Shown: in pieces, positions 29,943-30,604 of the stretch | How the letters are laid out: each line of letters opens with the position of its first letter | Position numbering within the stretch: the first letter of the stretch is position 1 | Assembly: GCF_003334315.1 (NCBI RefSeq) | Contig: NZ_QOWR01000018.1 | DNA: 64,000 nucleotides | Source of the DNA: Escherichia coli | GTDB taxonomy: Bacteria > Pseudomonadota > Gammaproteobacteria > Enterobacterales > Enterobacteriaceae | Strand: one strand, 5' to 3' | Position numbers and translations under genes: made by a program | The notes under the pieces: model-generated | Database searches by the model: none | Seen by the model: only the letters and a program-made list of their open reading frames with translations | What the model was told of the DNA's origin: nothing

Positions 29943-30424
29943 GCGAGGTTAATTATCAGGAAGGGCATGAAACGGCGGGGCAAGCAAAAACAGTGGCATG
30001 GCGATATCGCTACGTGAAAAAAAGGCGTTACGGACTTTCAGGGGAAGTAGTGGTCTGGTGACTGGAAATATGTACCGAAAAAAGAGGATTGTAACGATAG
30101 GCCGAACTATGAAATTCAGGCCTTATTCACTGCCCCGCCAGTCCCGGTTACATCAGAAGAACTGGTTAAAGCTGTGCACTTTTATGAACAACTAAAACGC
30201 GAAAATCCACCAGCATCCGGAAACCTGATTACAGGTTCCCAGATAAGGCAATGAGCTACCTGGCGCAGAACGGGCTGATAAGTATGGGGAATGTTTTACG
30301 ATGAATATTTAGACTAAAGAGTTTGTAACGCTATGTAAGTGATTTTTTCTGGTTTAGATATTTATATGTCCGGCTAAATTGAGGTGTGTTTAAATGTTAT
30401 TGCACATTGATTGTAGGGGGAATA

Positions 30425-30604
30425 ATGAAAAACGCATTGCAGTTTTTGTTTGTTGCGTTCTGGTTGTTCGCATCATGTATGCCCATCATCTTCACAGCAA
30501 GGTATATGGAAAAAGTTGATGTTTTGATATTAATATTTGGATATATAAATGCCCTTTTTTTAGGGGTGTTCATGGCGGTCATGTGCATTGAATACTGGCG
30601 GTAA
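30425..30604 (+). CDS. Small 2-TM membrane protein (59 aa)
   Basis: MKNALQFLFVAFWLFASCMPIIF...LILIFGYINALFLGVFMAVMCIEYWR: two hydrophobic helices; AT-rich context. Confidence 0.45.
   Translation: MKNALQFLFVAFWLFASCMPIIFTARYMEKVDVLILIFGYINALFLGVFMAVMCIEYWR

What the first reader, a model, noticed from the sequence alone, without database searches (positions are those of the whole stretch)
30300..30604. Unannotated small 2-TM membrane peptide in an AT-rich patch just upstream of hok
A 59-aa ORF with two predicted transmembrane helices lies in an AT-rich stretch right before the hok locus. Small hydrophobic proteins in prophage accessory slots are often toxins, abortive-infection effectors or superinfection-exclusion factors. 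An antisense ORF (30397..30588) is more likely compositional.
Basis: inference. Interest (0 to 1): 0.4.

Follow-up and report, generated by a model that had tools for sequence, protein, structure and literature searches.

The report
Small two-helix prophage membrane protein gene
The 59-codon reading frame just upstream of hok is very probably a real gene for a tiny two-helix membrane protein carried as cargo by E. coli lambda-like prophages, but its function is unknown and it matches no described family.

Summary
An ATG-started 59-codon ORF lies at 30425..30604 (+). It has a strong Shine-Dalgarno sequence and sits in a 32-37% GC patch, ending 54 nt before the promoter of a complete hok/sok locus.

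ORF length alone is not significant: 15% of shuffles give an ORF this long. The evidence that it codes is a 41%-identical, ungapped, equal-length paralogue (E=1e-8). That paralogue is present in 1045 of 5426 complete E. coli genomes and is also followed by a hok remnant. Neutral simulation keeps start, frame and stop in under 1% of trials, and pN is 0.35 against pS 0.70. The antisense ORF has stops in the paralogue.

AlphaFold and hydropathy give a two-helix hairpin. Nothing matches in Pfam, PHROGs, NCBIfam, PADLOC, PDB, BFVD or Rfam. No relative was found outside E. coli and Shigella. RefSeq leaves both copies unannotated; GenBank calls them hypothetical.

The ORF sits in a discrete module of about 350 bp, in a slot that carries other cargo in related phages. 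Function was not tested. My best guess is a membrane-acting accessory protein. One oddity: all 13 polymorphisms within the two groups change the amino acid.

This is a real but ordinary uncharacterised small prophage gene, of modest interest.

The parts
30425..30604 (+). orf59: coding sequence of a 59-aa protein with two hydrophobic helices (MKNALQFLFVAFWLFASCMPIIFTARYMEKVDVLILIFGYINALFLGVFMAVMCIEYWR)
   Evidence: ORF shown. It was intact in 115 of 118 contigs sampled through an anchor outside the ORF. A paralogue aligns ungapped at 41% identity and equal length. Neutral simulation and pN<pS support coding. AlphaFold2 predicts two helices.
30415..30420 (+). Shine-Dalgarno sequence AGGGGG, 4 nt before the ATG; AGGAGG in about half of relatives through the G/A polymorphism at 30418
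30387..30395 (+). Candidate extended -10 element TGTTTAAAT, 29 nt upstream of the ATG. The paralogue has TGCTTAACT 31 nt upstream of its ATG. This is inference only.
   Evidence: Read by eye. The consensus scan did not call a promoter here.
30305..30650 (.). AT-rich cargo module (about 350 bp, 32-37% GC) holding only orf59. It lies between the stop of the upstream frameshifted gene and the left edge of the hok/sok module.
   Evidence: Composition. Homology with other prophages breaks at about 30213-30275 on the left and 30651-30681 on the right.
30555..30561 (+). T7 homopolymer inside codons 44-46; the site of the frameshifted variants seen in a minority of copies
   Evidence: Protein variants P0019, P0022, P0024 and P0025. 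Two of 118 anchor-sampled contigs carry a frameshift here.
30397..30588 (-). Antisense 63-aa ORF, not a gene. It shares third-codon positions with orf59.
   Evidence: Its stop is lost or its frame shifted in 66 of 110 related contigs, and the same frame has stops in the paralogue. It is not hydrophobic. It is nevertheless annotated as 'hornerin' or 'hypothetical protein' in three phage records.
30659..31103 (+). Neighbouring complete hok/sok locus: promoter-like TTGCGG-16-TAGAAT at 30659-30686, sok/mok leader at 30693-30867, mok at 30805..31017, hok at 30862..31017, terminator at 31086-31103
   Evidence: Rfam RF01794 at 99.9 bits, hokD annotation, terminator. The promoter was read by eye.

Best explanation
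orf59 is a real protein-coding gene. It makes a 59-residue inner-membrane helical hairpin. It sits in a small AT-rich cargo module in the variable slot just upstream of hok/sok, in the early-right region of Qin-like lambdoid prophages of E. coli and Shigella.

Shown:
- The frame, length, start and stop are conserved between two paralogue groups that differ at 41% of nucleotides.
- Amino-acid changes are under-represented in that comparison.
- The protein is predicted to be two helices.

Inferred:
- Topology is N-in/C-in. Lys/Arg lie at the N-terminus and Arg59 at the C-terminus. The loop (residues 26-32) is net-neutral in group 1 and acidic in the paralogue.
- The gene has the same orientation as the O and Q genes, and no terminator lies between them. 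It is therefore most likely read from the early-right transcript after induction, and perhaps also from a weak extended -10 promoter of its own.
- The residues conserved between paralogues are W13, S17, C18, P20, I22, T24, Y27, L36, G39, N42-A43-L44, F49, I55-E56 and W58-R59, with G47 nearly invariant. On that topology most of them lie in the periplasmic half of the hairpin. They include a small-xxx-small motif, G39xxxA43xxxG47.
- That pattern points to packing against itself or against a host membrane protein.

My best guess at function is a membrane-acting accessory protein. It would either modulate a host membrane protein, for example to exclude other phages, or perturb the membrane itself. 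I do not expect a role in core phage functions.
For: Conservation:
- The DNA is in 1585 of 5426 complete E. coli genomes and in three induced-phage records.
- 115 of 118 copies sampled by an anchor outside the ORF are intact.
- The paralogue P0037/P0042 is 59 aa, aligns ungapped at 41% identity (E=1.2e-8), and is in 1045 of 5426 genomes.

Coding signal:
- Only the sense frame is open in both paralogues.
- Differences by codon position are 25/18/31.
- Neutral simulation keeps start, frame and stop in 0.4-0.7% of trials. Neutral amino-acid identity averages 17.5 of 59, against 24 observed.
- pN is 0.35 against pS 0.70.
- The ORF aligns without gaps, while the 60-nt spacer after it needs several.
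- T is enriched at second codon positions, p=0.006.
- SD and ATG are conserved.

Structure and setting:
- Two helices, pLDDT 73; hydropathy peaks.
- Discrete module boundaries, with alternative cargo in the same slot elsewhere: paa/adfO in PPompW phages, other genes in Rac-SA53 and Tritos.
- No terminator between the upstream genes and orf59.
Against: - There is no direct evidence of transcription or translation.
- ORF length alone is not significant.
- No promoter or terminator of its own was found by the consensus scan.
- Within each group all 13 polymorphic sites are nonsynonymous and none is synonymous. That is not what strong present-day purifying selection gives.
- Frameshifted and truncated copies exist.
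- No relative was found outside E. coli and Shigella, so the coding argument rests on a single paralogue pair.
- The function is pure inference: nothing matches in Pfam, PHROGs, NCBIfam, PADLOC, PDB or BFVD.
Confidence: 0.62

Rival explanations
1. It is a chance ORF in an AT-rich, T-rich non-coding spacer. The hydrophobic 'helices' are a by-product of composition, and the sequence is conserved only because the prophages are closely related.
For: 15% of shuffles of the patch give an ORF this long. All copies within a group are 95-100% identical, so intactness there says little. All 13 polymorphisms within the groups are nonsynonymous. PGAP never calls the ORF. No family match was found.
Against: The paralogue keeps the same start, length and stop despite 74 substitutions in 180 nt. 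This happens in under 1% of neutral simulations. pN is below pS, and amino-acid identity lies above the 99th percentile of the neutral distribution. The ORF has no indels, unlike the adjacent spacer. T is enriched specifically at second codon positions. A strong SD sits at the right spacing in all copies.
Confidence: 0.13
2. It is the toxin of a second, undescribed type I toxin-antitoxin pair next to hok, kept silent by an antisense RNA or a folded leader.
For: It is a small hydrophobic peptide next to a known type I locus. The paralogue has the same linkage to hok.
Against: No Rfam match in the patch. No promoter-like or terminator-like site on the minus strand. The leader folds no better than shuffles, z about 0. 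The SD is strong and not sequestered. Known type I toxins generally have one transmembrane helix (own knowledge). The paralogue survives intact in a decayed remnant whose flanks are replaced.
Confidence: 0.06
3. It is functionally tied to Hok, for example as a membrane modulator or immunity partner. That would explain why both paralogues sit immediately upstream of hok.
For: Every copy of both groups found is followed by a hok leader or a hok remnant. Homology between the groups runs continuously from the ORF start into hok.
Against: The two adjacencies descend from one ancestral arrangement, so they count as a single event. Most phage hok loci lack orf59: 80 phage records carry hok and only 3 carry orf59. 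hok/sok needs no protein partner (established knowledge of the R1 system). In the paralogue locus hok is destroyed while the ORF remains.
Confidence: 0.08
4. It is a holin- or antiholin-like lysis-timing protein (two-helix class II holin type).
For: It is a small two-helix protein with a glycine-zipper-like motif.
Against: It is not in the lysis cassette. The prophage has its own essD holin, rrrQ and rzpQ about 5.5 kb downstream. No PHROG or Pfam holin match was found. The C-terminus is only EYWR and lacks a charged cytoplasmic tail.
Confidence: 0.04

Closest known systems
Lambdoid-phage 'morons' (small accessory cargo modules inserted between conserved phage genes; concept from Hendrix and colleagues, own knowledge)
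   Same: It is a discrete unit of about 350 bp whose base composition differs from its flanks. It has sharp mosaic boundaries, and related phages carry alternative cargo in the same slot. It holds a single small gene not needed for core phage functions.
   Different: No clear promoter or terminator of its own was found. Classical morons are defined by having these.
Hok/Gef type I toxins (Pfam PF01848), the adjacent gene
   Same: Both are small hydrophobic inner-membrane peptides carried by prophages, and the two are physically linked in both paralogue loci.
   Different: orf59 has two helices instead of one. There is no sequence match. No antisense RNA or fold-back leader was found.
Small phage-encoded membrane proteins that block superinfection, such as T4 Imm (83 aa, two hydrophobic segments; own knowledge)
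   Same: Similar size and predicted hairpin topology; phage-encoded and non-essential.
   Different: No detectable sequence or fold relationship. No exclusion phenotype was tested.
Class II holins and pinholins of lambdoid phages, such as S21 (own knowledge)
   Same: Two transmembrane helices, about 60-70 aa, with small-residue packing motifs.
   Different: The genomic position is wrong, because the lysis cassette lies elsewhere. There is no holin family match and no charged C-terminal tail.

Membership tests
Genuine protein-coding gene | Reading frame, start and stop conserved across diverged homologues, with fewer amino-acid-changing than silent changes | tested here: met
   The paralogue aligns at 41% amino-acid and 59% nucleotide identity, ungapped, with the same 59 codons. 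Frame retention p is about 0.005, and pN is 0.35 against pS 0.70.
Genuine protein-coding gene | Excess of synonymous over nonsynonymous polymorphism within populations | tested here: not met
   13 nonsynonymous and 0 synonymous polymorphic sites. The sample is small and the sites are not independent.
Genuine protein-coding gene | Evidence of translation (ribosome footprints, peptide or tagged product) | not testable with these tools
   No paper contains the peptide or its accession numbers.
Two-pass inner-membrane protein | Two hydrophobic helices of about 20 residues joined by a short loop | tested here: met
   Hydropathy peaks of 2.1 and 2.4. AlphaFold2 helices at 2-26 and 28-58, pLDDT 73. 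Membrane insertion itself was not tested.
Hok/Gef type I toxin family | Match to the Hok/Gef profile (PF01848) | tested here: not met
   No Pfam match even at E<=10.
Type I toxin-antitoxin locus | Antisense or divergent small RNA gene, and a structured, translation-blocking leader | tested here: not met
   No Rfam match in 30305-30650. No minus-strand promoter or terminator. Leader fold z-scores from -0.1 to 0.6. An undescribed RNA cannot be excluded.
Holin | Located in the lysis cassette next to an endolysin; match to a holin family | tested here: not met
   essD, rrrQ and rzpQ lie about 5.5 kb downstream. No PHROG or Pfam match.
Known anti-phage defence system protein | Match to a PADLOC model | tested here: not met
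   No families matched for either paralogue at E<=1.
Phage moron | Base composition unlike the flanks, and discrete insertion boundaries | tested here: met
   GC is 32-37% against 44-50% in the flanks. Boundaries lie at about 30213-30275 and 30651-30681.
Phage moron | Own promoter and terminator | tested here: inconclusive
   The consensus scan found none. A TGn-extended -10-like motif is shared by both paralogues 29-31 nt upstream of the ATG (by eye).

The most novel reading that the evidence does not exclude
orf59 and its paralogue found a previously undescribed, E. coli/Shigella-restricted family of prophage hairpin membrane proteins. The family evolves under diversifying selection: all 13 polymorphisms change the amino acid. 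Two common alleles differ inside the motif that is otherwise conserved (FGH/FGY). The protein acts at the inner membrane as a phage-exclusion or abortive-infection effector, possibly together with the neighbouring Hok toxin.
Probability: 0.15. Interest if true: 0.55.

Novelty: new member of a known kind. Interest (0 to 1): 0.3.

Why it matters
Small membrane proteins are routinely missed by annotation pipelines. This one is absent from RefSeq annotation, although it or its paralogue occurs in roughly 2600 complete E. coli genomes. In phage records the wrong strand is annotated instead.

Confirming it would add one more uncharacterised prophage accessory gene, one that is cheap to test for toxicity or phage exclusion. 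It also marks the slot upstream of hok/sok as a cargo hot spot; the same slot carries the adhesin gene paa/adfO in other prophages.

It does not open a long-standing question.

Tried and rejected
- **Family searches.** PHROGs, NCBIfam, PADLOC, Pfam, PDB sequences and BFVD folds gave nothing usable. A weak DUF4212 hit (E=0.036, group 2 only) was dismissed.
- **Wider relatives.** I tried phmmer against 1.84 billion representatives, a profile search of 5.8 billion proteins, a degenerate-pattern scan of GTDB species genomes, and tblastn against phages and plasmids. These found only the two E. coli/Shigella groups. One 'Collinsella MAG' contig is identical to E. coli and is probably contamination.
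- **ORF length as evidence.** Rejected, because shuffles reach it 15% of the time.
- **Intactness within a group as evidence of selection.** Rejected as uninformative, because the copies are 95-100% identical.
- **The first IMG/VR sample.** It was chosen by protein similarity and is therefore biased. I replaced it with a sample anchored on flanking DNA.
- **RNA explanations.** Rfam, terminator and promoter scans, and leader folding gave nothing.
- **The 72-aa GTG-start version.** Rejected. The paralogue has no in-frame upstream start, and the SD serves the ATG.
- **Literature.** Searches for the peptide, its accessions and its context found no description. Pas sRNAs, which are reported near sok, lie by the lysis genes and are irrelevant here.

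Full report
**Setting.** The window carries a Qin-like lambdoid prophage of E. coli integrated next to rspB. The gene order is integrase, exonuclease, dicB/ydfD, repressor and cro-like genes, ydaT-like, O, DUF977, several small genes, hokD, rem, ydfU, Q, and a lysis cassette. The finding lies between the replication genes and Q, in the early-right orientation.

**What is there.** An ORF runs from ATG 30425 to TAA 30604 on the + strand, 59 codons. AGGGGG lies at 30415-30420, 4 nt before the ATG. In about half of related copies a G/A polymorphism at 30418 makes it AGGAGG. GC content is 32-37% over 30275-30650, against 44-50% on both sides.

The ORF ends 54 nt before a promoter-like TTGCGG-16-TAGAAT (30659-30686, read by eye). 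That element heads a complete hok/sok locus. Rfam places sok at 30693-30867 with 99.9 bits. The hok CDS is 30862..31017 and a terminator lies at 31086-31103.

The protein has two hydrophobic stretches. AlphaFold2 models it as two helices, residues 2-26 and 28-58, with mean pLDDT 73.

**Is it more than chance?** Length alone is not. 15% of dinucleotide-preserving shuffles of the 388-nt patch contain an ATG-ORF of at least 59 aa.

Closely related copies are also uninformative by themselves. The DNA is in 1585 of 5426 complete E. coli genomes and three induced-phage records, all at 95-100% identity. I drew an unbiased sample with an anchor outside the ORF. In it, 115 of 118 copies are intact, two carry frameshifts in the T7 run at 30555-30561, and one is a junction.

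The decisive evidence is a distant paralogue. An exhaustive phmmer search found P0037/P0042: 59 aa, 41% identity, ungapped over the full length, E=1.2e-8. It is in 1045 of 5426 complete genomes.

At the DNA level the two ORFs are 59% identical, with 74 differences and no indel. The differences fall 25/18/31 on codon positions 1/2/3, and only the sense frame is open in both. I applied 74 substitutions at random with the observed spectrum. Start, open frame and stop all survived in only 0.4-0.7% of trials. Mean amino-acid identity in the trials was 17.5 of 59, against 24 observed, which is at about the 99th percentile.

Nei-Gojobori counts give pN 0.35 and pS 0.70. Because pS is near saturation, dN/dS is about 0.24 or lower.

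Homology between the two loci begins at the ORF start. The z-score for the upstream 60 nt is 0.45. It is strong through the ORF (z 12.5). It continues with gaps into the spacer (z 5.4) and then into hok.

T is concentrated at second codon positions (52% against 38% and 23%, p=0.006). That is the signature of hydrophobic coding, not of a uniformly T-rich spacer. I conclude that the ORF is, or recently was, a protein-coding gene.

**The antisense ORF.** The ORF at 30397..30588 (-) shares wobble positions with orf59, so codon-position counts cannot separate the two. However, its stop codon is lost or its frame shifted in 66 of 110 related contigs. The corresponding frame in the paralogue has stops, and its product is not hydrophobic. 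It is not a gene, although three phage records annotate it, two of them as 'hornerin'.

**Context.** The paralogue sits in a decayed prophage remnant beside uspF/ompN in B2-type strains such as APEC O1. Its neighbours there are an integrase fragment, a DUF1627 fragment and a fragment of a metal ABC permease. It is followed 54 nt later by the 3' half of a hok gene. That half is 81% identical to window 30930-30991. So both groups descend from one ancestral orf59-hok arrangement.

In other phages the hok/sok module begins at window 30651-30681. The slot before it holds different cargo: the adhesin gene paa/adfO in PPompW phages, and unrelated reverse-strand genes in Rac-SA53 and Tritos.

On the left, homology to other contexts ends at about 30213-30275. 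One genome has the orf59 module behind an intact 204-aa version of the upstream gene.

orf59 is therefore the only gene of a discrete AT-rich module of about 350 bp, sitting in a cargo hot spot. K-12 Qin lacks it.

**Expression signals.** No sigma-70 consensus promoter or intrinsic terminator was called in or around the module. No Rfam family matches it. The leader folds no better than shuffles.

The gene has the orientation of the early-right operon, and no terminator lies in between. Read-through transcription after induction is therefore the simplest expectation. Both paralogues share a TGnTTAA(A/C)T motif 29-31 nt upstream of the ATG. This could be a weak extended -10 element, but that is by eye only.

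**Function.** Nothing matches in PHROGs, NCBIfam, PADLOC, Pfam, PDB or BFVD. No relative was found outside E. coli and Shigella. No paper mentions the peptide.

From the alignment, the residues invariant between the paralogues are M1, L5, L8, W13, S17, C18, P20, I22, T24, Y27, L36, G39, N42, A43, L44, F49, I55, E56, W58 and R59. Basic residues lie at the N-terminus and at the C-terminal Arg, and the paralogue's loop is acidic. An N-in/C-in hairpin is therefore likely. On that topology most conserved polar and small residues, including G39xxxA43xxxG47, fall in the periplasmic half.

I infer a helix-packing surface, used for self-association or for binding a host membrane protein. The most likely role is a membrane-acting accessory protein, either for exclusion of other phages or for perturbing the membrane. 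I hold this functional guess at about 0.3. The gene call stands at about 0.85.

**An unexplained point.** Within group 1 all nine polymorphic sites in the ORF change the amino acid: A16V, M28I, V31I, I37M, Y40H, A43V, L44I, V48G and M53T. Within group 2 all four do: V6M, S11N, A31V and I33R. No site is synonymous. Under neutrality the chance of this is 0.01-0.05, depending on transition bias.

The two common group-1 alleles differ at I37M and Y40H, inside a motif otherwise shared with the paralogue (MFGH). This may be diversifying selection, relaxed selection plus chance, or exchange of allele blocks. The sites are not independent events, so I leave it open.

**Verdict.** This is a real but ordinary uncharacterised small prophage membrane-protein gene that RefSeq annotation misses. 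It is a new member of a known kind and of modest interest.

Noticed in passing
window 30659-31103; L002 (PhiR42_1) 3969-4615 and 7889-8241; L004 (K-12) 2937-3289: The hok/sok locus here is complete. In K-12 Qin, homology starts only at 30848, 14 nt before the hok ATG. In PhiR42_1-type prophages a block of about 3.3 kb (IS, flxA, ydfV, relBE) sits inside the hok leader. Bases 30848-30863 are present on both sides of that block. So the relBE-hokD arrangement of K-12 looks like an insertion that cut hok off from sok/mok.
   Followed up: partly
L204 829-1124; L207 (APEC O1) about 9130-9430: A 41%-identical paralogue of orf59 is in 1045 of 5426 E. coli genomes, unannotated in RefSeq. It lies in a prophage remnant next to uspF/ompN and is followed by the 3' half of a hok gene and a fragment of a metal ABC permease. 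cdtABC and an omptin gene lie a few kb upstream.
   Followed up: partly
window 30425-30604; L204 829-1008: All 13 polymorphic sites within the two paralogue groups are nonsynonymous and none is synonymous (P about 0.01-0.05 under neutrality). The two common group-1 alleles differ at I37M and Y40H.
   Followed up: partly
L235 (PPompW_EH1992) 919-1665; L236; L237: The slot immediately upstream of the hok/sok module carries different cargo in related phages: the adhesin gene paa/adfO in PPompW prophages, and reverse-strand genes in Rac-SA53 and Tritos. It appears to be a cargo hot spot.
   Followed up: partly
ON470612.1 23024-23475; ON470619.1 22361-22812; PV340562.1 10959-11210: These phage records annotate the non-conserved antisense ORF instead of orf59. 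Two call it 'hornerin' and one 'hypothetical protein'.
   Followed up: yes
window 29939-30304: The gene upstream of the module is frameshifted and has an internal stop in this prophage. A 204-aa hypothetical gene (WP_369759143.1) that shares its last ~30 nt and may be its intact version lies in NZ_AP022003.1.
   Followed up: no
window 31026-31107: There is a weak, sub-threshold Rfam match to isrK (25.7 bits against a gathering score of 50) over the hok 3' region and terminator. It is probably just the terminator hairpin.
   Followed up: no
window about 33430-36230 (L003 16433-19229): Between Q and the lysis genes the prophage carries a reverse-strand lipocalin gene, a YbgA-family gene and a helix-turn-helix gene. 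This looks like another cargo block.
   Followed up: no
L208 (JAIJJM010000167.1): A contig labelled 'Collinsella sp. MAG' encodes an orf59 100% identical to E. coli. It is probably a binning contaminant.
   Followed up: no
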